Assembly (NCBI RefSeq): GCF_004010195.1
Contig: NC_057746.1
Span: 16,874,820 to 16,938,819, forward strand
DNA from: Chiloscyllium plagiosum
Taxonomy: Eukaryota
Length of the DNA stretch: 64,000 nt
Reading direction: 5' to 3'
Shown: piece by piece, positions 27,379 through 62,317 of the stretch
How the letters are laid out: each line of letters begins with the position of its first letter
How positions within the stretch are numbered: position 1 is the stretch's first letter
Notes under the pieces: generated by a model
Told to the model about the DNA's origin: nothing
What the model saw: only the letters and a program-made list of their open reading frames with translations
Databases searched by the model: none
Program-made: the position numbers and the translations under genes

Positions 27379-29259
27379 CAAAATCTCTAATTCCAGGTTG
27401 ATTTGAGGATTATTGGACTCAAAGGAAGTGAGTGGAAAGTGTTAGTGTCTTTTATGAGGGATGTTGAATTATGTTGGTTTAAACAGGGTGAGCTTTGTGA
27501 TGGACAGCAATCCCAGTGTAGCCAAAGACTCAGGGAGAAAGAAAGAGAGGTCAGAGTAGGAACATCAACACAGAAGGGAACCTTGATACAGAGTCCAGGT
27601 CATTCCCTTTGACAACTCTCTCACCCCTGACTGTCCAACCTCCACCCGTACTCTCCAATCCTCGGATTCTTCCCTAAGATCCCCGTCACTCACCAACTCT
27701 CAGTTCTCTCTCTGTTTATACTTCAGGTATTTCCTCAGCCATTCAATATACCCCTCTTCCAAGTCGTGCTTCACCAATGCTTGGTCACCACATGTTGGTC
27801 CCATCTGTTTTTGATGCTTTCTGACCAAAGGAATGAGGTCACCCACAGCATGTGATCTTTACTGAAGCTGATAAAATCTTATCTATTCCATCCAAATTGA
27901 TAAAACCCACTCATCATTGTCCCTCAAGTCACCACCACTCACCATCTGCAATGTGTGAATTCCTGTCCATCAGAAACACAAACTGCCAATCACAGCCAGT
28001 CATCCATGTCCCTGTCAATTAGGAACACATTGTGGGTCTCACTACAGCACATGGACTGCAGTGGTTCAGGAAGGCAGCTCACCACCACCTTCTCAACGGC
28101 AGCAAGGGATAGGAAATAAATAAAATATTTGCGGAAGCTGGACATATGAAACAACAACTAAAATTGCTGGAGAAACTCAGCAGAGTTAATGTTTCAATTC
28201 TGGTTCACCTGTCAGCACTAATTGGCCCAGCCAATGACACCCACATCCTACAAGTATTTTTTAAAATTGTAATTCTGAGCCAGTCATCCCAGTCAAACAG
28301 AAACTCAAGCTGCCATTTAGAGTTATCGCTGTCAATCAGATTTGTAGCAGTGTGGAAATACCGAAGACAGTGAGTATATGAAAGAGTGAGAAACACCAGG
28401 ACATGAATCTCTAAATACGTATCACAAAACGCCAACAGAATTTCAACAGAGCACTCAAGGAGACATCTTTACACTGCATAGCAGTCTATTAAAGCCCAGG
28501 ATCCTGTCTGCCTTTCTTTCACCGCTTTCTGAACCTGTCCTGCCACCTTCAGTAATATTTGCTTTTATTTTAAAATCATCTTTTCTTTTTTCACCTCCCT
28601 GGTCAAATCCATTAAACGTGTCTTAGCTGCTGGATAATTTTATCAAACCTCTTAGCGTAACAAGTTCAGAGATGTCTGTTTTGTTACTGAGTCAGGTCCA
28701 GAGACTGGGATCTGTTTTCCTTTTAAATTTTTTTTCAGTATGCCCACAATAATGGGAAAGAAGCTGTCTCCCCCAAGTCCCTCTACAATCTGCTGCGTAA
28801 AGCTTCCACAAACTCTGTAAGCTTGTGCTCCGTGGCATTCTTTTTAAATTCAAAGCCTTTTGTTTTAAAAAAAGGAACACCTTTTTAACACCTTGTAATA
28901 TCCTTCATTTTCCATGGATATAACAATATTCAAAGCTGAATTAGATTTCTCACCAACATGGAGGTAAAGGTTCTTTAGTAAAGACAGATAAATGGAGATA
29001 ATGCCAAAAACCAACCAAAGGCTGATAGAATATTGATTTTTATCTTAAGGTCTGGAATACATGAGATTGAAGTCATGTCCAGTTACTGGTTAGGCCTCAG
29101 TTGAGTGAATGTGTTCAGTTCGAGGAACTGCACCTGAGGAAAGGGAAATTGCCTTTGGTGAGGGTGCTGTGCAGATTCACCACCCTGATACTAGGGCTAC
29201 ATTATGAAAACAGATTGTATACGCTAGGTTTGTACTTCGTTCAGTATTGAAGACTGAAG

Positions 29260-32198
29260 AGTCATCAGGACACTATGAAGTCTCATGGCATCAGGTCAAA
29301 CGTGGACAATGAACCCTCCTGCTGATTAGCACATACAGTCCCCCATCCACTCAGCTAATGAATAAATACTCCTTCATGTTGACACAACCGAAGAGGGAAG
29401 TACTTCAAGTTGTCCTCACTGATCTACCTGTAGCACGTTTATCTGTCCGTGACAGTATTGGTACGAATTATGATTACATAATCCAAGTGGAGGCAAAGTC
29501 CCATTTTCACATTGAGGATCCCCACCACTGTTGTGTGGCACAATCACTTTGCTGAATGGGTTAGATTTCAAACAGATCTGGGAAAACAAAGCTGGGCACT
29601 TATGAGGCACAGTGTGTCATCAGCGGCTGCAGAATTATATTGAAAACTACATTCTGTACCATCTGTAACCTCATGATTTATCACATCATACTTTACTTTT
29701 ACTTTCAATCTAGGGATCAACCATAATTTGATAAAACATATATAATTTGTTTTGGAGCATGGATTTCAAAATAGAGGTCCATAGGTATTGGTAATCTCTG
29801 TGCGGTGTTTCTATTACAAAAATGCAAAGACAGAGTCTTTCTGAAAAAGTGATTAAATTGAGCACTATCATATGTCAGGTGACTATAGACCCCTATGGTG
29901 CCAAAACTAAGAGGTTTATACTGTTGGGTTTATGACAGGTGAAGTAAACATGCAAGGCTGCTCCCTCTGTTTTTCAGTTTGATTCAGAACATACCAAGGT
30001 TGAGTTTAAAAGCTAGGATCATCTTGCTCATGGAAGCCCTCAGGGCAGATTAGGGAATAAGCCATCTCAGCAGAAAAGTTTGGTTTCTGAAACTTCCAAG
30101 CCAAGAGAGGCTGGTTAGAAATCACTAAGTTGTTAGAATTGAGATAGTTTAAACTTTCACATTTGTAAGACGTTCATGACAATAGTTTGGAAAGGACTTA
30201 ATGAATGGTCCCCACAGTCCACAACAATGAAACTGACAGGATTTGAGATAAGAGTGTAATCTTCTGTGGACCTGACTCTCTGCAATGGATGGTGTTAGGA
30301 AACAGGTTGAAACTTTGTTTTGCTGTATGTTTTGATAACTTCCCAACTGTCTTCTTTGTTTAGATGGATTGATTTTGTTTTAATTTTTATTGTCTAATAA
30401 ACTCCTGTTCTCTTGCTAAAGAAAATCTATATGCATATTTTAAATATGTCTGAGTGACAATCACCGCATAAACAAACTGCATTAATTTAACTAGGTCACT
30501 GTAGTCCCTTTTTTTCTAAAAATGAAAAGTGGTTTGATGTACTGTTTTTGCTTAAAATGAGATTTGGGGCTTCCTATGTTGGCGTCCATAATTCTCTGTT
30601 GTATTATAATTGTTGACATGTCTTGTACCTTTATTTTTTAAATTCAAATTCACATAAACAAACAGCATACAAAACACACAAGATCCATTTTATTCTGAGA
30701 TTTGACTTGTCCACTGGTAACATCATTTAGGTTACTAATACTGGTATAATGAAGAACACCAGGGGACGTGCCAGGAGTATCATCAGACAGATTTAAAAAT
30801 GAAGTGCCAAACTAGTGCAGCAACAACACAGGACTAATTCTATTTCATACAGTGGAAATAACTCATGATTGAAAGAATCAAGCAATCCCAAAACAATGGA
30901 TCAGTCAAAGCTCCACAATTCTCCATCATCCAAGCATGAATGTTGTTGGACAATTAAACAACTAACAGAAATATAAGGCTCCACAAATATTTCCATGTTC
31001 AATGACAGGGATGTCTAGTACAATAATGCTGAATAATTTATGCCCATTTTCAGCCAGAAGAGTTATAGAGTCAAAGAGATGTACAGCATGGAAACAGACC
31101 CTTTGGTCCAACCAGTCCATACTAACCAGATATCCCAACTCAATCAAGTCCCACCTGCCAGCACCTGGCCCAAATCCCTCCAAACCCTTCCTATTCATAT
31201 ACCCATTCAAATGCCTCTTAAATGTTGCAATTGTACCAGCCTCCACCACATCCTGTGGCAGCTGTGAGTGGCATCCAACTATGCCCCTCAGTATCTCAGA
31301 TGCCAATCTGAAATCAATTTGGTTCCGTCCTTGTGCCATCAAGAAATGGCTATGAATCTTGACAACATTCCAGTAATAATACTCACGACTTGTGCTCCAA
31401 AATAGCCACATCCTTTCCAAGCTCTTCTAGTACATAACACTGATATCTACCCAGCAATATGGAAGATTACCCAGATATATCCTGCACACAAAACACAGAA
31501 CAAACTCCACAAACAATTCCCATCACAGCAGTCTACTTTTAGTCATCCTCAAGGTGATAAAAGGGGCTGTTGACTGAGTTTTCAAGCTCAGCAGTAACTT
31601 GGCCAATGGCATTCAGTTTGAGTTTCATAGGACCACTCAGCTCTTATCTTATCACAACCTTAGTCCAAACATGTTCAAAAGAGCTGAATTTCACATATCA
31701 GATGATATAGAAGCCTTTGAGGTCAAAGCAGCATCTGATATTAAGAGGCCAAAGCAAGACTGGGGTCAATGGGAATCGGGGGAAATCTCACCACATTTGG
31801 AGTCATATTTAGCAGAGTGGAAGATGATTGTGGGTATTGGAGGCCAGTCTTTTCAGTCCCAGGACATCATTGTAAAGGTTTGTCATCTTCCAGCCCAACC
31901 ATCTCCAGCTGCTTCATCAATAACTTTCCATCCATCATTAGGTTAGAAGTGATGATGTATTCTGAATATTACACAATCTTCAACACTATTTGCAAGTCCT
32001 CAGATACTCAAGCAGTCTGTGTCAAAAGCAGCAAGACCTGGTTACCTGCAAATTGTGTAGTGCCAGTGACCACCTTAAAACCTCACACAACAGAGCAGTT
32101 AACTATCTCATCTTGATATTCAATAGCATTACCATCCTTCACTATCAACAGTCTGGGCATTAACCATTGACTAGAAACTGAATTGGATTAGTCATAGA
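29260..32198 (+). mobile_element. Highly decayed L2/CR1-group LINE, interrupted by an LTR-like block (~29730-30740) and a CR1 3' tail (31066-31262, minus)
   Basis: Colinear with 47570-49000; RT remnants (IYPAIWKITQIYPAHK, gcccaaccatctccagctgcttcatcaat). Confidence 0.65.
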
Positions 32199-33643
32199 AG
32201 CTTGTTATTTTTGTCAGTTTCTGTACATGAATTGCACACACAGTCTTTAAATTGTGCTGGTCTTTCAATTGTGGATGTGTCACCTGATACCAAAATGTTC
32301 ACATTGCATATGTGGAAAACTTCTGCACTGGTACACTTTGCGAAACGCCCTGCCAGTGAAGAACATAGGTAAAAACAATGACTGCAGATGGTGGAAACCA
32401 GACTCTAGATTAGAGTGGTGCTGGAAAAGCACAGCAGTTCAGGCAGCATCCGAGGAGCAGGCAAAAGGACGTTTCGGGCAAAAGCCCTTCCGAGGAGCAG
32501 TAAAATCGACGTTTCGGGCAAAAGCCCTTCATCAGGAATACCCCCAGTGAAGAACATATCAATGCCCAAAAGCACAATAAATATGACTGAATGGGATGGA
32601 ATCACATCAATGACCATACGGTGGGTATTGCACATATGCATTTTTCACACAAGTAATAAGTGCATTTTGGGTGTGTCAGCAAGCATTCTTCTTAAATGTG
32701 TGTGTGTACACTGTTGTTGGCTCTTCCTCTGGATGATGCTGCTTCTCCAGGGAATGTAATTCCCAAGTCAGTTATTGTTTCTGCAGGACCCGATTTTTGT
32801 TCCATTTCCATTTTGCCAGTTATGTACACCTCCAGGGCTGATGGTTTCTCTGTGGACTGTGTGAATGGTGTGTTCACATTTTCTTTAGCAATATGTAGTG
32901 AAGGATAGGATGCTCCAGTTGTATGGGAGTTGATCGCAATGGTGTATCTGCTTATTAACTTCAACAGGATACAATCAATGTTATAAAAAACTACAAATAG
33001 TAGAAATCAGAAACTTAAACAGAATTTATTGGGAAAGTTCAACAGGTCTTTCAGCATCTGTGAAGAAAAATCAGAGATAATGCTTTGGGTCCAGTGACTA
33101 ACTGAAGGCAATAATTGCTCTCTACAGGTCCCAAGTTGACATCTAAGCTGACTCTTGTTGAGAATGTTGAAGGTTTTTACCCTGATTGGCTCGCCAAAGC
33201 TCTGCTCTGGAAATGAGTTGACAGTCTTGTTAAAATGATATTTGGCTTTCTGCCATTTTATCATGATATTGACCTTCATATCTGTTACTATTTCTGTCTT
33301 CAGCATGTTTTTTTTGCCATCAGAAGAGCAGTTGTATGCGGTGACATTAGACTAGCACATTTCATGCTTTCAGTAGATATGTATTGTTATTTGAGGATTG
33401 TATAGGATTGCTTGATTTCTTTGATTTTCATTCCTTAGCTTTTCAATTTGATTAAGGGTAGTGTGAGGTTGATGTGTGTTGTGAATTTCCCAAACCTTCA
33501 GAGAGCGGCTGATTTCTTCACTCATGATATAAGAACCATAATTGCTCATCACAATGTTGGGAATGTAGTATTGACTAAAATGCTTTTTTTTTCAGGCATT
33601 CTATAATCTTGGTAGTCATCATCAAATCCAGTTGGTCCATCTC
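32192..33643 (-). pseudogene. Candidate large decayed exon of an unidentified gene
   Basis: Acceptor ttcttgtccactag at 33644-33645. After an A9 run, one frame stays open for ~370 codons with four stops (33370, 33352, 32692, 32602), excluding two Penelope insertions. Confidence 0.4.
32508..32535 (-). ncRNA. Minimal hammerhead ribozyme core in a Penelope pLTR insertion (32368-32543; TSD ccagtgaagaacata)
   Basis: Minus strand CTGATGA-a-GGGC-tttt-GCCC-GAAA-C-GTC. Confidence 0.72.
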
Positions 33644-34564
33644 CTAGTGGACAAGAACATTAGACTACAATAACAAGATAATCAGTTCCGCTGAGAAGTT
33701 TGAATCCAGCCATTTGATTGGTGAGCCTCGACAGTGAGACAATTGAAGAATAATCAATTAATCAATAGGTATTACAAAAGACTGTACATATAACCTATAC
33801 CACTCTGTAGTGTGTAATAATACATTTCGAGCTTTTACTCTGAAAAATGGTGATTCCCAAGAAAAGAAATAGGTAATGCTGAGTGAAAACCTTTGTAACT
33901 GGCCTTAATCTCATTAAATTGAGCTGATTAAAAAAAACTTTATTAAAATTATCTACAATGGTGAGATATGGAAACGTTCTGATGTATAATTATAAGAGAA
34001 AGTGTTCACAAACATGAGAAACTGTTATATGTCATAAACTAGTCAAATGAACAGTTAAGTTAGTCAATTAGTGTTCAACAGTTAGGCTAATTGGAGATAA
34101 TAAAATGAGTTAATGGTATATAATTAAGTTTTCAAAAAGACATTTTGTTGACTTATTTCACACTTCACTTCAGCCTAAAGTCATCAATGTCTGTTTAGTT
34201 GTCAAGTTATTTCCCTTTCTTTCTGTAACTTAGAAGTGTGTCTATCATATTAACTGCTTCTGCCTTTAATTGTTCAATAAATCTTTTCAATTTACCAACT
34301 ACAGTTTAGGCTCTTGCCTTACGGGTAATTCTTGTATGAATCTAAATAATTTAAAATCTTGGATTCATTAAAAGTTAAAATATCAAGTCAGATAATTTGT
34401 ACCTCTTGACATTCTAACAGTAGCATGTTAAAGGGTTAATGCCCCAGTATTCAGTCTGGCAACGGCCCTTCTTACCACATTACCTCTTGACTGAGGACTA
34501 ATGTCCCAGTGTGCCATCTTGTGTTGCCCCACTCTCCCCTGCAACCCCACACCCCATTATTCAC

Positions 34565-34792
34565 CTACAGAGAGCTCTCAAAACAGTCCAATCACCGTTA
34601 CTTCAGTTGAACGTTTAGGAAGAGAAATTGGTGACAAATAATTTTTTTGTCTTAGTCTATGAACTGTGTCCTGGACTGTTATTAAACCCTGTTCCTGTTC
34701 ACTCGGACTTCTTCATACTGATTGGTCCCAAAACAGCATTGATTCAACCAGAATAAAAAGGTTCTGAATCATCAGGCTCCAGCAGAATATAT
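34565..34792 (-). pseudogene. Candidate 228-nt exon (phase 1-1) of the unidentified gene
   Basis: ctgtttttag acceptor, G|gtgaat donor. Reads DIFCWSLMIQNLFILVESMLFWDQSV*RSPSEQEQGLITVQDTVHRLRQKNYLSPISLPKRSTEVTVIGLF*ELSV, with two TGA stops. Confidence 0.3.
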
Positions 34793-36230
34793 CTAAAAAC
34801 AGATTGAAAGCCAAACTTTCCCTAGTATTCTGTCAGATAAATACTTCCCCTTTCATATCCAGCTGTTAAGGAAAACAGCTGAGATGCAAGTTGCTTCTTT
34901 CTTCAGAAACTTTCCAGATGGGAAGGAATAATTCAGCCTCCAATCTGCTATGCCATTTAACAAGAAAATTAGTGATCTTCTGTATGCTCATATCTTTCAG
35001 AATCCAAAATAATAGATCAATATCAATTCCAAAGTTCCAATTGTTCAACATTCACAAACATTTGAAGGAGACTGTTTTAAATGTAACACACATTTGGTGT
35101 AGAAATGTGGCTCCAGACACTACCCCCACTGCACCAAGCAGAGACAAGGATGGAGAATCATCAATCAATTTCAGCCACAAGTGCTAACAGGATAATTCAT
35201 CTCAGTCTCTTCAGCAGGTGCCCATCATCACAGAATGAATTTTTAAAACGGTCGAATTCACTTCATGTGATATCGAGAAACAGTTGAAGTCAGAGGATAC
35301 AACAGCAAAAAGCTACCAGCCCTGACAACATTCAGGCAGCAACACTGAAGATTTGTGCTCCAGAACCTGTCATGCTCATAGTCAAGGATTACTAACGCTG
35401 GTATCTACACAGGAATGTGGAAAACTGCCCAAATATGTCCGGTGCTATTTCCTGACTATTCCTAAACAGCGGATTATGACCAGATTGGTCTACTCTGAAT
35501 TAACAGAAAGTGATAAGTGTCATTGACAGTGAATAATATGTATTCACTGAAGCTCAGCTTGGAGTTCACCGAGGCAACTTAATTCCTGGACATTAAGATT
35601 TTGTCTTCTTGAAGATGGTATTGCCTGCTTTTGTTTGGTAATAAGTTTTACTTAAGTATCCAATAACAAATTGAATCATTTCAATGAGCTGAGAAAAAAC
35701 AAATGGCAGGACTTAGACTGAAGGGCAACAAAGATTAAAAGGCCATCTGATATAAGATTATGAGAAGCATAGAGAGGGTAGATTGGAAAGTACAGTTTTC
35801 AATAGCAAAGGGGTCAACTGGGAGTATAGTTTTAAAATAAGAGGGAGAAGACTAGGAAGAGAGTTGCAAAGAGTTACTCAAAGAGCAGTAGGAGCCTCAA
35901 ACACTCTGCCTAAAAGGATCAGTGCATTAAAAACGCAAAGATTGAAGCAATGTTTAAATCTTCACTTGCAGTAGCCTCCATGGATGGAAAATGGAATTAA
36001 TGTAGTCAATTCTTTGTTGACTGGTGGAGACAAATTGGACCAAATGGCCACTTTCTGTGCTGTAAATGTGTATGAGTCAATCTCACTCATTAAGGTGACA
36101 TAACTGACATTTAATGGATATCCTTAAAATATTATTTCTATCACAATTAAAGCTAAAACATGCAAACTTGAAGAGTAACAAACTGGCTATTTATCTGAAA
36201 TAACTGCAACAGCTTCTTGACCACACAATG

Positions 36231-38116
36231 TTATTAGGGTAACAGCTGTCAGGGGATCTGTCTAGGGGATTTATAACCTCAGCATTATTAGTGTAACAGC
36301 TGTCTGTGAGGATTAGACTCTGGAATTCATATTTTCAGTATTATTGGGATAACATATGTCTGTGAGGATCAGTCTGTGGGATTTATATTCTCAGTATTAT
36401 TGGAGTGACAGCTGTCTGTGAGGATCATTCCCTGGGATTTATATTCTCAGTATTATTGGTTTAACAGCTATCTGTGAGGATCAGTCTGTGGGATTTAGAT
36501 TCAGTATTATTGGGGTAACAGCTGGCTGTGAGGATCATAGAGTCATAGAGATGTACAGCATGGAAACAGACCCTTCAGTCCAAACTGTCCACGCTGACCA
36601 GATATCCCAACCCAATCGATGCTCCAGGGAAAACAGCCCTAGCCTGTTCAGCCTCTCCCTGTCGCTCAGATCCTCCAATCCTGGCAACATCCTTGTAAAT
36701 CTTATCTGAACTCTTTCAAGTTTCACAACATCTTTCCGATAGGAAGAAGACCAGAATTGCACGCAATATTCCAATAGTGGCCTAACCAATGTCCTGTACA
36801 GCTGCAACATGACCTCCCAATCATGTATTCAATACTCTGACCAATAAAGGAAAGCATACCAAATGCCTTCTTCACTATCCTATCTACCTGCGACTTCACT
36901 TTCAAGGCTATATGAACCTGCACTCCAAGGTCTCTTTGTTCAGCAACACTCCCTAGGACCTTACCATTAAGTGTATATGGCCTGTTAAGATTATCTTTCC
37001 CAAAATGCAGCACCACGCATTTAGCTGAATTAAACTCCATCTGCCACTTCTCAGCCCATTGGCCCATCTGGTCCAGATCCTGTTGTAATCTGAGGTAACC
37101 CTCTTCGCTGTCCATTACACTTCCAAATTTGGCGTCATCTACAAACTTACTAACTGTACCTCTTATGCTCGCATCCAAATCATTTATGTAAATGACAAAA
37201 GGTAGAGGACCCAGCACCGATCCTTGTGACACTCCACTGGTCACAGGCCTCCAGTCTGAAAAACAATCCTCCACACCACCCTCTGTCTTCTATCTTTGAG
37301 CCAGTTCTGTATCCAAATGGCTAGTTCTCCCTGTATTCCATGGGATCTAATCTTGCTAATCAATCTCCCATGGGGAACCTTGTCGAACACCTTACTGAAG
37401 TCCATATAGATCACATCTACGGCTCTGTCCTCATCAATCTTCTTTGTTACTTCTTCAAAAAACTCAGTCAAGTTTGTGAGACATGATTTCCCACGCACAA
37501 AGCCATGTTGACTATCCCTAATCAGTCCTTGCCTTTCCAAATACATGTACATCCTGTCCCTCAGGATTCCCTCCAACAACTTGCCCACCACTGAGGTCAG
37601 GCTCACTGGTCTATAGTTCCCTGGCTTGTCTTTACCACCCTTCTTAAACTGTGACACCACGTTTGCCAACCTCCAGTCTTCCGGTACCTCACCTGTGACT
37701 ATCGATGAAACAAATATCTGAGCAAGAGGCCCAGCAATCACTTCTCTGGCTTCCCACAGAGTTCTCGGGTACACCTGATCAGGTCCCGGGAATTAATCCA
37801 CATTTAACCGTTTCAAGACATCCAGCACTTCCTCCTCTGTAATCTGGATCAGTCTGTGGGATTTATATTCTCAGTATTATTGGGGTGACAGTTGTCTGTG
37901 AGGATCAGTCTGTGGGGTTTATATTCTCAGTATTATTGGGGTAACAGCTCTCTGTGAGGATCAGTCTGTGGGGTTTATATTCTCAGTATTATTGGGGTAA
38001 CAGCTGTCTGTGAGGATCAGTCAGCGGGGTTTATATTCGCAGTATTATTGGGATAACAGCTGTCTGTGAGGATCAGTCAGTGGGGTTTATATTCTCAGTA
38101 TTATTAGGGTGACAGT
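36231..38116. repeat. 56-bp minisatellite (~10 copies) split by a CR1 insertion
   Basis: Unit ggatcagtctgtggggtttatattctcagtattattggggtaacagctgtctgtga at 36254, 36310, 36366, 36422, 36478, 37846, 37902, 37958, 38014, 38070. Confidence 0.95.
36538..37845 (-). mobile_element. 5'-truncated, fairly young CR1 (RT domain plus 3' tail) with an internal deletion
   Basis: WRLANVVSQFKKG, SQHGFVRGKSCLTNL, YMDFSKVFDKVPH, QGSVLGP, FVDDAK, LYRTLVRPLLEYC; (atgactct)n tail. Confidence 0.95.
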
Positions 38117-38208
38117 TGAGGCCGATGCTCGGTCTCTGTGGTTGTGGTTTATGTTCCTGGGTCTATTTGACTGGAAGGAGTTTAAACTCTCTCCGCGAAT
38201 ATCCCTAC

Positions 38209-38623
38209 CAGCTTCAGTATTCTCCCTGAAGGCCTGCACGTCCCCACCTCCGGGCCGACTCTCAGCCCGCTGGCTCGATGCTGATGGTGGCGAGGTGGCG
38301 AGGTGGGAGGAGGAGGAGGAGGAGGAGGAGGAGGAGGAGGAGGAGGCCGCCGGTTGCTCTCCGTCCACCCACCTCTCCCCATCCCCATCCCCATCCTCCC
38401 CCTCCTCTCCCCATCCCCATCCTCCCCCTCCTCCCGCTGCCGGCTCCGCCTCGGGCTCGAGGGGAATGGGGGCTCGCTCACCTCCTCGCGCGCTCTCTGG
38501 AAAGTTCCGGCGCTTTCTGCATTGGGGCGGTTGGCGGTTGGCGGTTCCCAGGAGGACCCGGATGGAGCGGCCGTTACTGCGGAGATACTGGTCCGGCGGG
38601 GACAGCCACCTCAACGGTGTGGA
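38209..38623 (-). CDS. Candidate coding exon 2 of the unidentified gene (alternative donors after 38482 and 38209, both phase 1)
   Basis: Strong acceptor tctctctctctctgtcgcctacag. Open frame STPLRWLSPPDQYLRSNG...CRKRRNFPESARG(...GEDGDGDGE...S13...RENTEA). Donors gtgagc and gtaggg. Confidence 0.45.
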
Positions 38624-38838
38624 CTGTAGGCGACAGAGAGAGAGAGACCTACCCAGGATCATGAAATGTGGAGTGTCGGGTCAGTGTGCGCTGAAGTTCA
38701 CATTATTTGGAGATGTCGATGTCGCATTGGGGTGTACAAAGTTTTTTTTATCAAAAAAACAAAAAAATCACAACAGCAGGTTATAATCTCACAGAGTTAA
38801 TTGGAAGTTTCGGAGTTTGACATCGTTCATTTTCTTAC

Positions 38839-38904
38839 GGCACTGGCCTCATGTTCCCTTTTCTTTCCTCTTGTGTCTTCAAGATCCGCCTCGACCGGGT
38901 TCAT
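38839..38904 (-). CDS. Candidate coding exon 1 of the unidentified gene (MNPVEADLEDTRGKKREHEASA)
   Basis: ATG at 38904 with G at -3, ~90 nt downstream of the ETS motif. Phase 0 gtaaga donor matches the next exon's phase 0. Confidence 0.4.
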
Positions 38905-39215
38905 GACCACCCCATCCGTGACTGTCCTTGGGGAAGATGCCGGTGATCTACCTCCCAGATCTGCAGGGGGGTGGAGGATGGGGTTGCGGCCCCGGAAGTC
39001 GTCTTTTTAGTTGTTTTTGGCTCATCCGTAGTTTAAGGACCGCGGGTGGGGAGGGGGCTCCAAGTCCGGATGGTGTGTGTGTGTGTGAGTGAGAGAGAGA
39101 GGGAGGGTAACCTGCACCGGGTCGGTGTTGCTCTGCATCTGCTGACAGCCTGCTCCTGGAGGGTGGACCTCGGCACGTGTGGAAAGCGCAATGGAAAGGG
39201 AGCATTGCTGAGTTA

Positions 39216-45045: not shown

Positions 45046-47569
45046 TGGATGAGTCCCTCATGGTCACCTCAGCCAATGCAGAAAAATGAATCCACACTGT
45101 TGATACCACTCTGAATTGCAACCAGCCAGGCATTTGAGCTCACTGACCAAAGCAGAGTGACTGCAGAGTGTACCTTGTTTCAGAAACACTGCAAGATCCT
45201 GCCCAGCATCATTTGACAGTACATAACCAACTTATAAAATCTCCCATCTCCAAGGAGCAGACTAATGGGAACACCACCATCTGCAAGTTCACCTTCATGT
45301 CTCTCAGCATCCTACCTTGGAACTGTATCACTGGTCCTTCACTGTCACTGGACTATAATCTGTGAACTCGCTCTATGTTGCAGGGAGAAACATGAAAGAG
45401 GAGTCCTAAGTTCTGTGTTCCATTGTACAAGTGACCTTTACTCAGAACTCCATTACCACAATTGTGGAAGAGGCCTGAGACCACCCTGAATCTGGCTTTC
45501 ACCTGGGGCTTAGTTGCCCTCTGAAATACAGCTCAGATCAGAAGTCAGTGACGCAATGGGTTCCCCAACTGAGTACAAATTTTTATGCCTTTAATGTTGC
45601 AACAATTACGTGCAAACTTTACATCATTGTTAGGCTCACCTTCTACCCTTTACTAAATAACAAACTTGGCACTGTGGCTAAAAGAGGCCTTACAAAAGTG
45701 CTCCGTACTAAAATGCTTATATGTTTTTAAAACTGCCTGTTTACACAAACGTGAATAACTTACGTATTGTATCTTCTGAAGGAGAATCTTATCCTGTATC
45801 TCTGTATGGAGACTGCAAGTCTAGCTTTGAACATCTGCTATATGTAACTGTCCACGCCTTTTGGCTATCATGTATTAACTAAAAAAGCACCAAGTGGCCA
45901 TCTTGTCAACTTTAGTCATGGTCTGCTACAACACTCTCCAACAACAGTGTGCCTGTTTATGCAAAAGGTGGACTGCAATGAATCAATATTCTTGCTCACC
46001 AATACTTTTTAAGGGTGCGTAACACTGTAACACTCAGATGTCATCAGCCAGTTAAAAAGGGGAAAAAGAGCAGTTTGTTGAATCCGCTACACTGGTACAA
46101 GAAAAGGCTGTTAAGCCCCTCTAATCTCTTGTGATGGAGTAGGAGGAGGATGTTTGGCCCCTTGAGTTTTTGACAGCATGCCATTCAGTTCTTCTGATCT
46201 GTGATGCTGGGTATTATAAGCAGAGAGGACAAATGTCTGCACTGCATATCAATTGACCTGGCTGCAAGATGAAAATCTCTATTGCCCCATGGGATCATGT
46301 GACTCTGCAAAGCCAGGAGTCAATGTATTGTTGCATTTCTAACAAAACATCTCCCTTTACAGTCAAAACTGTTGCTTGTATTTTCGCTTACATAATGAGT
46401 TGCCCAGTTTATCCATGATGGGCACGAATGACGGCATGCAACAGTAGTTCATTGTACGTGCTGGCATTCATCATTGGTTGTACTTCTGGGTGATGCTGCT
46501 TATCCTGGGAGTGTCATTCCCATGTCACTTGTAGTTTCTGCATGACGTATGTTCCATTTCCAATATTGGGGTTTTGTGGGCAATGGGGGCTGATGCTTGA
46601 TTTTTAGCATGTGCAGATGTTGTATTCACATCTTAATTAGTCAGCTGCTGTGATGGAACGGTCACTCCCTTTGTGCTGTGGATGCAATGGTATAACTGGT
46701 TTTATTTGGGGAGATGATGGTCTAGTGGCATTATCATTGAACTATTAATCTTGACATTCTGGTAATGTTCTGGGGACCTGGGTATGAATCCTGCCACGGC
46801 AGATGGAATTTGAATTCAATAGATATCTGGAATTAGGAATCTAACAACAACCATGAAGCCATTGCCGATTCTTGGGGGAAAAACTCATCTGGTTTACTAA
46901 TGTCCTTCAGGCAAAGGAAACTGCCATCTGGCCAGGCCCAGCTGTGACTCTCGACCCACAGCAATGTAATTGATACTTTGAGGCAAACACAAGAGACATT
47001 TTAAAATCAGTTTCTGCAAGTTTGGAAATCAGCGAAGAAAAATTATGCAGCCTTGAGACAATTGAAACAATTGAAACAACACTTTGAGACAATTGAAGAA
47101 TAAGGAAATAATCAATAGATATTAGTAAAGGCTGGACTTCAAATCTGTCACAGAAAGTATGTAATGTTTTATTATAACATTGTTGTAAATGTACATTGTA
47201 AGTTTTTATTCAGCAAAATGGTATTCTAAGCAAAGTGATAACAAATACGGAGACAAAACCTTCATCACTGTCCTTGATGCTGTATAGGCTCAGTAAATTG
47301 GGAAACAAATTACTGCAGAATACTTCAATAAAGCATTCTGATGATTTCTGAAGTACTGCTGTAGGGTAAAATGATCACAAACATGAGAAAGTGCTTTCTG
47401 TGTCAGACATCACAATTAAACACACAGTTAAGTTAATCAATGAGTATACCCAGTTCGGCTGATTGGAATAATAAATTTTAAGTTAATGACATAAAAAAGA
47501 AGTTTTGAAAATGCATTGTGTTAACCAATTATCCAGCGCTGGGCAAAAGATAATTTCATAATTCAGAGT

Positions 47570-49000
47570 CTGCAGCACAGTCTGTAAGATGTGGCCCAGC
47601 ATATCCATTCAACCATTACCTTCAAGCTGGTGGATCAACCCTGGTTCAATGGAGAGTGCAAGAGGACATACCAGGAGCAGTGTCTAGTAGACCTGAAATG
47701 AGGTGTCAACCTGGTGAAGCCACTAAACAGGACTATTTGCATAAGCAGCAAATGATAGACAGAACTCAGCAATCTCGCAAACATTGGATCAAATCTGAAC
47801 TCTGCAGTCTGCTACATCAAATCATGAATGGTAGTGGTCAATTAAATAACTCATAGAGGACACGTCTCCACAAATATCCCCACCCTCAATGAGCAATGAG
47901 TAAGGATGAAGCTTTTGCAGCAATCTTCAGCCGGAAGTGCTGAGTGGATGATCCATCTCTGCCTCTGCCAGTAGTCCCCAGCATTGTGGGTACCAGTCTT
48001 CAGCCAATTCGATTCACTCCACATGATATCAAAAAAACAATTGGAGACAACGGATACTGCAAAGGCTACGGGCCCTGGGAACGTTCCAGCAATACTATTG
48101 GAGACTTGTGCTCCAGTACAGCTGCAACACTGGCATCTGCCTGACAATGTGGAAAATTGCCTGGGTATGTCTTGTACATAAAAAGCAGGAAAAATCCAAT
48201 CTGGCCAATTACTGCCCCATTCAGTCTACTGTTGATCATCAGTAAAGTGATGGAAGGTGTTCTCAGGAATAACTTGCTCAGTAATGCCCAGTTTGGATTC
48301 CAGCAGGATGGCTCACTGCTGAGCTCACTACAGCCTTGGTTCAAAATGAACAAAACTACTGAATTCCAGATGTGAGGTGAGAATGACAGCCCTTGACATC
48401 AAGGCCGCATTTGACCAAGTGTGGCATCAAGGAGCCCAAGCAAAACTGGAATCAATGAGTTACACGGGCACACTCTCCCATGGTTGGCATTGTATTGTAG
48501 GAAGATGATTGTGGTCACTTCAGCTCCAGGGATCTCTACAGGAATTTGTCAGGGTTGTATCCTGTGCCCAACAATCTTCAGATGCTTCATCAATGACTTT
48601 CCCCACCACCCTCAATCATAAGGTCAGAAATGAGAATGTTTGTTGATGAATGCAAAATGTTCAGCACCATTCACGACTACTCAGGTACTGAAGCAATCAT
48701 GTTTAAATACAAAGAGTTCAAGTTAACAGCCAGGCTTGCTCTGACAAGTGACAAGGAACAATCGTGCCAAACAAATGCTAGGCTTTAACTATCACTAATG
48801 AGAAACAATCTAACCAATGCCCCCTTGATTTTCAGTGGTGTTAGCATCACTGAATCTCCCATTATCTACATCCTGAGGGTTATTATTTAACCAGAAACTC
48901 AACTGGACTCACATCACAAACACTGGCTACAAGAGCAGGTCAGAGGCTAGAAATACTGCGGCGTGTAACTTGCCTCCTGACTTCTCAAAGCCTGTCCAGT
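47570..49000 (+). mobile_element. Decayed L2/CR1-group LINE ORF2
   Basis: DTAKATGPGNVPAILLETCAP, PFSLLLIISKVMEG, AQFGFQQ, ALDIKAAFDQVWH, QGCILCPTIFRCFIND. Confidence 0.8.
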
Positions 49001-61905: not shown

Positions 61906-62077
61906 CTGAGGGAGAGAGAAAGAGGAGTCAGTGCAGGGAGCTCGAGATGAAAAGAAACCTCGAGGTACAGAGTCCAGGACACTACACCCTTCACTGACTC
62001 TCAAACTACCTGTACTCACTGTCTCTCAATGCCACCACCTCCCCTACACCACTTTACATCCTTCCCAACCCACTCAC

Positions 62078-62276
62078 CGACTTTCAGTTCCCTCTGTCCA
62101 TATTCCAGGTATTTCTTCAGCCACTCGACACACTTCTCCTCGAGGTAATGCTTCCACCTCTGCTTGTCCACCACAAACTGGTCCCATTTGTTTTTGATAC
62201 TTTCCGCCTAGGGGACTGGGGTCACCCACACCATGTGATCCTTATCGAAGCTCATCAAAGCTCGTCCATCCCATCC
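62078..62276 (-). pseudogene. MHC class I gene B alpha2 exon, 3' two-thirds only, with in-frame TAG
   Basis: GWDGRALMSFDKDHMVWVTPVP*AESIKNKWDQFVVDKQRWKHYLEEKCVEWLKKYLEYGQRELKV then gtgagt donor; TAG at 62208-62210. Confidence 0.92.
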
Positions 62277-62317
62277 TAATGTGGAGATAATGAAACAGCC
62301 AAAAAAATATTGTTTAT

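What the first reader, a model, noticed from the sequence alone, without database searches (positions are those of the whole stretch)
32192..39000. Unidentified multi-exon gene running from a CpG island, sandwiched between the class I genes
Seen on the minus strand, in order: ETS motif (38992); ATG 38904; exon to 38839 (phase 0); exon 38623-38482 or -38209 (0 to 1); exon 34792-34565 (1 to 1); large exon from 33643 (phase 1, GDGPTGFDDDYQDYRMPEKK). All have canonical GT/AG sites and compatible phases. The 5' exons are open, with KKR/RKRR basic patches, GE/GD repeats and poly-Ser. The 3' exons carry stops, a frameshift at an A9 run and two Penelope insertions. I do not recognise the protein. Inference: a lineage-restricted gene that has become a pseudogene or lncRNA while keeping an unmethylated promoter. 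This is the best candidate for something undescribed here.
Basis: inference. Interest (0 to 1): 0.7.

Follow-up and report, generated by a model that had tools for sequence, protein, structure and literature searches.

The report
Stray ABCF1 promoter makes chimeric RNA
This is not a lost protein gene but a patchwork of three dead pieces in a shark MHC class I cluster (a copied first exon and promoter of the housekeeping gene ABCF1, the leader exon of a broken class I gene, and a decayed retrotransposon integrase), from which the copied promoter likely still drives a spliced, likely non-coding RNA.

Summary
The splice-like sites and the CpG island are real, but the exons do not come from one gene. 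Exon 2 is a decayed duplicate of the 5' UTR, exon 1 and start of intron 1 of ABCF1. The intact ABCF1 lies 3.08 Mb away on the same contig and shares a 56-bp minisatellite found only at these two places; the copy lacks the ATG and the donor. Exon 3 is the promoter and leader exon of a third, broken class I gene whose alpha1 stub and alpha2 lie at 28.4-27.7 kb. The large exon is an LTR-retrotransposon integrase remnant (144 matches in the genome), read off-frame. One contig of a probable RNA run joins 38482 to 33726 across a GT-AG intron. It works like human HCP5 and chimeric pseudogenes. Unexplained: an 82-base block is 81/82 identical to ABCF1 intron 1 while the exon is 75% alike. The scan's notes show nothing like it on other DNA.

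The parts
38810..39210 (.).
   Evidence: No paralogue in G000 beyond microsatellite hits or in the fetched loci; no junction for it among those listed
38691..38807 (.). High-copy repeat fragment
   Evidence: Most of the 49 matches, at 72-80% identity
38482..38679 (-). First observed exon of the spliced transcript (5' end unknown); donor GT at 38481 lies in the old ABCF1 5' UTR
   Evidence: X1 record 3; site context; alignment to parent
38470..38580 (-). Duplicate of the ABCF1 5' UTR / core promoter
   Evidence: 69 of 91 aligned bases, above 200 of 200 shuffles
38266..38467 (-). Dead duplicate of ABCF1 exon 1: ATT at the start position, G/A-rich and TCC expansions, CT in place of the donor GT
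   Evidence: 84 of 112 aligned bases, above 200 of 200 shuffles; best peptide match is whale-shark ABCF1, score 80.5 against shuffle maximum 55.5; parent named
38119..38265 (-). Duplicate of the start of ABCF1 intron 1; 38119-38200 is 81 of 82 identical to the parent
37846..38118 (.). 56-bp minisatellite of ABCF1 intron 1, proximal block
   Evidence: Found only here and in ABCF1 intron 1; units 52-55 of 56 alike to the parent's unit
36538..37845 (-). Truncated LINE inserted into the minisatellite, flanked by a 5-base direct repeat
   Evidence: RVT_1 at E 1.9e-15 and 6.6e-13; ends and best long relatives 87-92%
36231..36537 (.). Same minisatellite, distal block; end of the ABCF1-derived segment
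   Evidence: no similarity beyond 36230 (62 of 200 shuffles reach the score)
34565..34792 (-).
   Evidence: All 7 other matches in G000 lie in this class I cluster; 7 of 7 paralogous leaders keep ATG in the alignment
33701..34460 (-). Class I intron-1-like sequence holding the acceptor actually used (exon starts at 33726)
32621..33726 (-). Second observed exon (3' end unknown)
   Evidence: X1 records 3 and 2 at depth 12.3 and 13.7; X4 pieces 33344-33605 and 32680-32851 with no differences
32195..33697 (-). Decayed LTR-retrotransposon remnant (integrase core and C-terminal part, Ty3/Gypsy-type domain set), broken by stops and frameshifts
   Evidence: 144 matches in G000; Pol protein P0041 matches 33582-33166 at E 1.5e-9 and 31 of 35 copy loci; Pfam on P0041 and copies
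32985..33099 (.). High-copy repeat fragment nested in the remnant
32366..32550 (.). High-copy repeat end with a 40-bp tandem duplication, nested in the remnant
28345..28409 (-). Stub of the class I pseudogene's alpha1 exon
27687..27948 (-). Broken alpha2 exon of the class I pseudogene; no alpha3 or TM exon found behind it
   Evidence: 76% to a neighbouring alpha2; PF00129 at E 0.0012, below cut-off

Best explanation
The stretch is a patchwork of a dead duplicate of the ABCF1 promoter and first exon, the leader exon of a class I pseudogene and a retrotransposon integrase remnant, and the copied CpG-island promoter likely still fires and makes a spliced RNA that is likely non-coding and likely a by-product. 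Steps: (1, shown) about 1.1 kb of the ABCF1 5' end sits 1.6 kb upstream of a class I leader, 3.08 Mb from ABCF1. (2, shown) The copy has lost ATG and donor, and a LINE split its minisatellite. (3, inferred) The island stayed unmethylated and active because such a promoter works on its own. (4, shown in one contig) A donor in the old 5' UTR joins a cryptic acceptor in class I intron 1, skipping the dead leader and running into the integrase remnant. (5, inferred) No protein is kept.
For: Parent: the only non-repeat paralogue of the island opens with an ATG exon that matches the N-terminus of named shark ABCF1 proteins. A shark ABCF1 gives 23 HSPs in order behind it, and a downstream exon hits human ABCF1 5zxd at E 9.5e-23. 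ABCF1 exon 2 is single-copy and no other ABCF1 exon is found in 384 kb around the window. Leader. Integrase. RNA: X1 record 3, 957 bases, joins 33725 to 38481, which is a 4755-base GT-AG intron on the minus strand; its depth of 12.3 compares with 2.9-6.4 for listed intronic pieces and 0.18 for the bin holding exon 3. Non-coding: the longest ATG frames of the spliced form are 99, 80 and 59 codons. X1 differs by +2 at 38634 and -7 at 38526 inside the 80-codon frame. No homologous protein was found for the open frame among 106 candidates.
Against: The junction rests on one contig of one run whose RNA status is a guess, from an organism label other than that of the best DNA holders. X4 shows both exons but no listed junction; X20 gave 0 reads (no test); X6 gave only short pieces; 4 of 24 runs were laid and 760 joints were hidden. 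Neither start nor end of the RNA is known, so the promoter is inferred; the contig reaches 38679, upstream of the ABCF1-derived part. The 81/82 block and the kept CpGs may mean selection rather than a by-product. The window's own integrase frames hit no Pfam family. Of 10 hits scanned from the 25 in the representatives search, 7 were WD40 proteins, 1 Cna_B, 1 had no family and 1 was a Pol; I read the WD40 hits as summed weak repeats (single-stretch E 0.12 or worse).
Confidence: 0.78

Rival explanations
1. The duplicated ABCF1 island or its RNA was kept by selection as a regulator (enhancer-like element or lncRNA) of the neighbouring class I genes.
For: 81 of 82 bases identical to ABCF1 intron 1 beside a 75% exon; CpGs kept; the copy keeps states shared with whale and zebra shark ABCF1 that this genome's ABCF1 lacks, so it is old; duplicated elements can be rewired to new targets (10.64898/2025.12.03.692127, abstract).
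Against: A gene-conversion tract next to a minisatellite explains the block without selection; indel variation inside the exon; exon 2 is transposon debris; no functional data.
Confidence: 0.12
2. Promoter capture: the ABCF1 copy once spliced onto the class I leader (acceptor 34792) and drove a non-classical class I gene from a housekeeping promoter before that gene died.
For: Same strand, 1.6 kb upstream of the leader; a pyrimidine-rich AG at 34793; the motifs upstream of the CCAAT box are altered in this copy (their class I promoter role is recalled).
Against: The observed transcript skips the exon (depth 0.18 in X1, 0 in X4); 2 of 7 paralogous leaders have an AG within two columns of that place, so the site need not be new; the order of events is unknown.
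Confidence: 0.05
3. One reading: one lineage-restricted protein gene that decayed.
For: Canonical sites and compatible phases; exon 1 plus long exon 2 are open for 160 codons; exon 1 has no paralogue.
Against: Three exons have three separate origins; 36 stops; the basic, acidic and poly-Ser patches come from ABCF1 exon 1 and simple-repeat growth in GC-rich DNA; no homologue; the observed splice differs.
Confidence: 0.02
4. The locus is silent and the joined contig is an assembly chimera or a DNA deletion allele.
For: Single contig, run only guessed to be RNA, joined form not checked in DNA runs.
Confidence: 0.04

Closest known systems
Human HCP5 lncRNA (Kulski 2019, PMC6562477; abstract and section 2.1 read)
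   Same: A two-exon non-coding RNA among class I duplication blocks, made of a borrowed promoter exon spliced to a retroelement remnant, beside a fragmentary class I pseudogene.
   Different: [quoted passage not shown] Here the promoter comes from ABCF1, the class I leader is skipped, and the integrase remnant is read in sense. Independent origin; no function shown here.
Chimeric pseudogenes from segmental duplication (Jadhav et al. 2026, PMC13122177; abstract and one Results section read)
   Same: Pieces of two genes fused within an intron; the 5' parent's CpG-island promoter and first exon co-opted to drive a transcript.
   Different: Those cases are human, from duplications over 5 kb, and some keep coding potential. 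Here about 1.1 kb was copied, the 3' gene's exons are not in the observed RNA, and no frame survives.
ABCF1 (shark proteins P0017, P0023, P0027; human 5zxd)
   Same: 5' UTR, exon 1, start of intron 1 and the intron minisatellite.
   Different: No ATG, no donor, none of the other exons.
Elasmobranch MHC class Ib cluster (Verissimo et al. 2023, PMC10751288; six passages read)
   Same: A multicopy class I cluster on the MHC chromosome; an earlier scan note calls the neighbour UBA.
   Different: The gene inside this finding is a fragment without alpha3 or TM; its lineage was not tested here.
Ty3/Gypsy-type LTR-retrotransposon Pol (P0041; PF17917, PF17921, PF00665)
   Same: Integrase core and C-terminal part; RNase H upstream in other copies.
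   Different: Only a broken remnant of about 1.5 kb; no RT or gag found here; family not named.

Membership tests
ABCF1 partial duplicate | Homology to the ABCF1 5' UTR, exon 1 and intron 1 above chance | tested here: met
   69/91, 84/112 and 134/148 aligned bases, each above 200 of 200 shuffles
ABCF1 partial duplicate | The paralogous locus is the intact ABCF1 gene | tested here: met
Functional ABCF1 gene | Start codon, exon-1 donor and ABC-domain exons | tested here: not met
   ATT and CT at those places; no other exon in 384 kb; exon 2 single-copy
MHC class I pseudogene | Leader, alpha1 and alpha2 exons in order, disabled | tested here: met
   neighbouring alpha1 hits class I structures
MHC class I pseudogene | alpha3 and TM exons | tested here: not met
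   None found behind alpha2 in the window
UBA lineage | Groups with UBA sequences in a tree | not tested
   Label from scan note e1-9836454 about the neighbour only
LTR-retrotransposon Pol remnant | Dispersed copies and similarity to RNase H / H2C2 / rve proteins | tested here: met
   144 matches; P0041 at E 1.5e-9 on the window and 31 of 35 copy loci; Pfam hits in 3 of 21 frames from 7 copies, one above cut-off
Ty3/Gypsy clade | RT phylogeny and LTR structure | not tested
   Assigned from domain set and order only (recalled knowledge)
Spliced lncRNA | Spliced transcript over 200 bases | tested here: met
   One 957-base contig with a GT-AG joint; RNA status of the run is a guess
Spliced lncRNA | No conserved reading frame | tested here: met
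   Frames of 99 codons or less, frame-breaking indels, no homologue
Spliced lncRNA | Defined start, end and function | not testable with these tools
   Contigs show no ends; raw-read run gave 0 reads
HCP5 | Class I promoter plus leader as exon 1, antisense ERV16 as exon 2 | tested here: not met
   ABCF1-derived first exon, leader skipped, sense integrase remnant
Unmethylated CpG-island promoter | High GC and CpG o/e, no excess of CpG decay | tested here: met
   methylation itself not measured

The most novel reading that the evidence does not exclude
An old duplicate of the ABCF1 housekeeping promoter was domesticated inside the shark non-classical class I cluster and is kept in step with its parent across 3 Mb, by ectopic conversion or shared selection on an 82-base intronic element. 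It would regulate the neighbouring class I genes through itself or its RNA: a shark counterpart of HCP5 that arose independently.
Probability: 0.12. Interest if true: 0.65.

Novelty: new member of a known kind. Interest (0 to 1): 0.3.

Why it matters
It removes a false novel gene and shows how one arises: a housekeeping promoter copied into a class I duplication block turns pseudogene and transposon debris into a spliced transcript, as known from the human MHC. It adds an unnoticed class I pseudogene to the cluster and gives a datable marker for rearrangement of the carpet-shark MHC. The near-identical intronic block offers a simple test of conversion against selection between loci 3 Mb apart.

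Tried and rejected
Protein search with the integrase-frame piece: none of 78 candidates passed. WD40 hits in the representatives search were rejected as summed repeats. PF12848 search of G000 found 2 matches on another contig and not this ABCF1. No RNA holder is listed as RNA on record. X20 gave no reads, which is no test. X6's depth over exons 3 and 4 was not used, because its longest listed pieces are 133 bases or less and all lie in the LINE. Similarity upstream of 38600 or beyond 36230 to the ABCF1 locus is at shuffle level. The idea that the ETS motif of the old 5' UTR was lost in the copy was dropped, since whale-shark ABCF1 reads like the copy there. The shared contig end at 38679 in X1 and X4 may be a plus-strand donor, a variant or an assembly break; left open. 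Paper searches for ABCF1 with shark or cartilaginous fish and MHC listed 8 and 2 papers, none on this duplicate by title or abstract start; ABCF1 does not occur in the main text of PMC10751288 (figures and supplements not seen). Further searches. Scan notes by words and by sequence gave nothing alike.
Full report
Observation. The island is real: GC 0.63 and CpG o/e 0.65 over 38119-38700, against 0.43 and 0.24 for the window. Class I genes end on both sides, one on + at the window start and one on - at 54-62 kb; six loci with alpha3 exons lie in the 384 kb examined. The joined model has 36 stops, the first at codon 96 or 187, and splice-like sites are common here: 27 acceptor-like and 35 donor-like in 7.1 kb.

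Exon 2 is a dead copy of the ABCF1 5' end. A genome search with the island gave one non-repeat paralogue, 3.08 Mb away on the same contig and strand. It opens with a 39-codon ATG exon that matches the N-termini of named shark ABCF1 proteins. A shark ABCF1 gives 23 HSPs in order behind it, and a downstream exon hits human ABCF1, 5zxd, at E 9.5e-23. The window matches the parent's 5' UTR (69 of 91 aligned bases), exon 1 (84 of 112) and intron start (134 of 148), each above 200 of 200 shuffles; flanks on either side are at shuffle level. A 56-bp minisatellite occurs only here and in ABCF1 intron 1. Here it is split by a LINE. The copy has ATT at the start position and CT at the donor. ABCF1 exon 2 is single-copy.

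Age. Of eight ABCF1 N-termini compared, the copy is closest to the whale-shark one (score 80.5, shuffle maximum 55.5), ahead of its own parent (69, reached by the best shuffle). It shares WVDGE, PPSASSQ and a 5' UTR state with whale shark. I infer that the duplication predates these changes in this lineage's ABCF1. Of 38 aligned parent CpGs, 21 are kept and only 5 read TG or CA; in the LINE against a relative, 12 of 20 changed CpGs do. This fits an island that stayed unmethylated (inference). Against this age, 38119-38200 is 81 of 82 identical to the parent, and the nearest minisatellite units are 52-55 of 56 alike. Conversion or selection could explain it; I could not tell them apart.

Exon 3 is a class I leader. 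All 7 other matches to 34150-35100 lie in this cluster, upstream of class I exons. In the alignment 7 of 7 paralogues keep the ATG and a hydrophobic leader ending at the same donor; the window copy has GTG, an 18-base deletion and a stop. A conserved CCAAT lies inside the proposed exon, so most of it is likely promoter (motif role recalled). An alpha1 stub and a broken alpha2 follow at 28.4 and 27.9 kb; no alpha3 or TM was found. A neighbour's alpha1 hits class I structures. A scan note calls the neighbour UBA (not checked); PMC10751288 describes a multicopy UBA cluster (passages).

Exon 4 is retrotransposon debris. The DNA has 2189 first-look candidates, and one frame has 144 matches in the genome, nearly all with stops. 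A Pol protein with RT_RNaseH, Integrase_H2C2 and rve matches 33582-33166 at E 1.5e-9 and hits 31 of 35 copy loci. Pfam hits appear in 3 of 21 frames from 7 copies, and in none of the window's three frames. The A9 frameshift lies inside this remnant. The other representative hits were mostly WD40 repeats (7 of 10 scanned), which I reject. The Ty3/Gypsy label rests on the domain set (recalled).

Transcription. Of 24 runs listed, 4 were laid. X1 record 3 (957 bases, depth 12.3) covers 32963-33725 and continues without a gap into 38481-38679. With one base of slack this is a 4755-base intron with GT at 38481 and AG at 33727 on the minus strand. A second contig extends cover to 32621. X4 has pieces in both exons but no listed joint; X6 has only short pieces; X20 has no reads. 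The spliced form has ATG frames of 99, 80 and 59 codons. No protein homologue was found. Limits: one contig, RNA status guessed, 760 joints hidden, ends unknown.

Mechanism. Shown: the three sources, the lost ATG and donor, the LINE insertion, one spliced junction. Inferred: the copied island works as an orphan promoter, splicing found a new donor in the old 5' UTR and a cryptic acceptor in class I intron 1, and the RNA is a by-product.

Comparison. It works like HCP5, a borrowed promoter exon spliced to a retroelement among class I duplication blocks (PMC6562477, abstract and section 2.1), but fails HCP5's defining features. It also resembles chimeric pseudogenes driven by the 5' parent's promoter (PMC13122177, abstract and one section). 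Rewiring of duplicated elements is described in 10.64898/2025.12.03.692127 (abstract only). Two searches for ABCF1 in shark MHC papers found no report of this copy (listings only); supplements and figures were not seen and genome annotations may list it as an lncRNA.

Verdict. A new member of a known kind, interest 0.3. The anatomy is firm (about 0.95); the orphan-promoter by-product reading as a whole stands at 0.78.

Noticed in passing
   Followed up: yes
window 38119-38200 against G000:C37:19992110-19992191: 81 of 82 bases identical to ABCF1 intron 1 although the adjacent exon copy is 75% alike: conversion tract or conserved element.
   Followed up: partly
window 38679: Contigs of two runs both stop matching here, one with 14 unplaced letters; the plus strand reads like a donor at this base, so a divergent transcript is possible.
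   Followed up: no
window 46474-48700: A second remnant resembling parts of 30797-35366 (65-71%), likely another decayed class I flank or intron.
   Followed up: no
G000:C37:16722300-16727000 and 16860700-16865900: Two class I genes each have two leader-like exons in tandem upstream of alpha1.
   Followed up: no
G000:C37:19990530-19992109: The ABCF1 intron-1 minisatellite has 28 units; the 15 nearest the exon are identical and the distal ones are decayed.
   Followed up: partly
window 62071-62277 and G000:C37:16971448-16971747: The flanking class I gene on the minus strand has an in-frame stop in alpha2, and no alpha1 exon was found for it (part of the region reads N); the last gene of the cluster has a frameshifted alpha3. 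Both may be pseudogenes.
   Followed up: no
G000:C37:16820686-16821225: An alpha2 remnant directly followed by a TM exon, with no alpha3 between.
   Followed up: no
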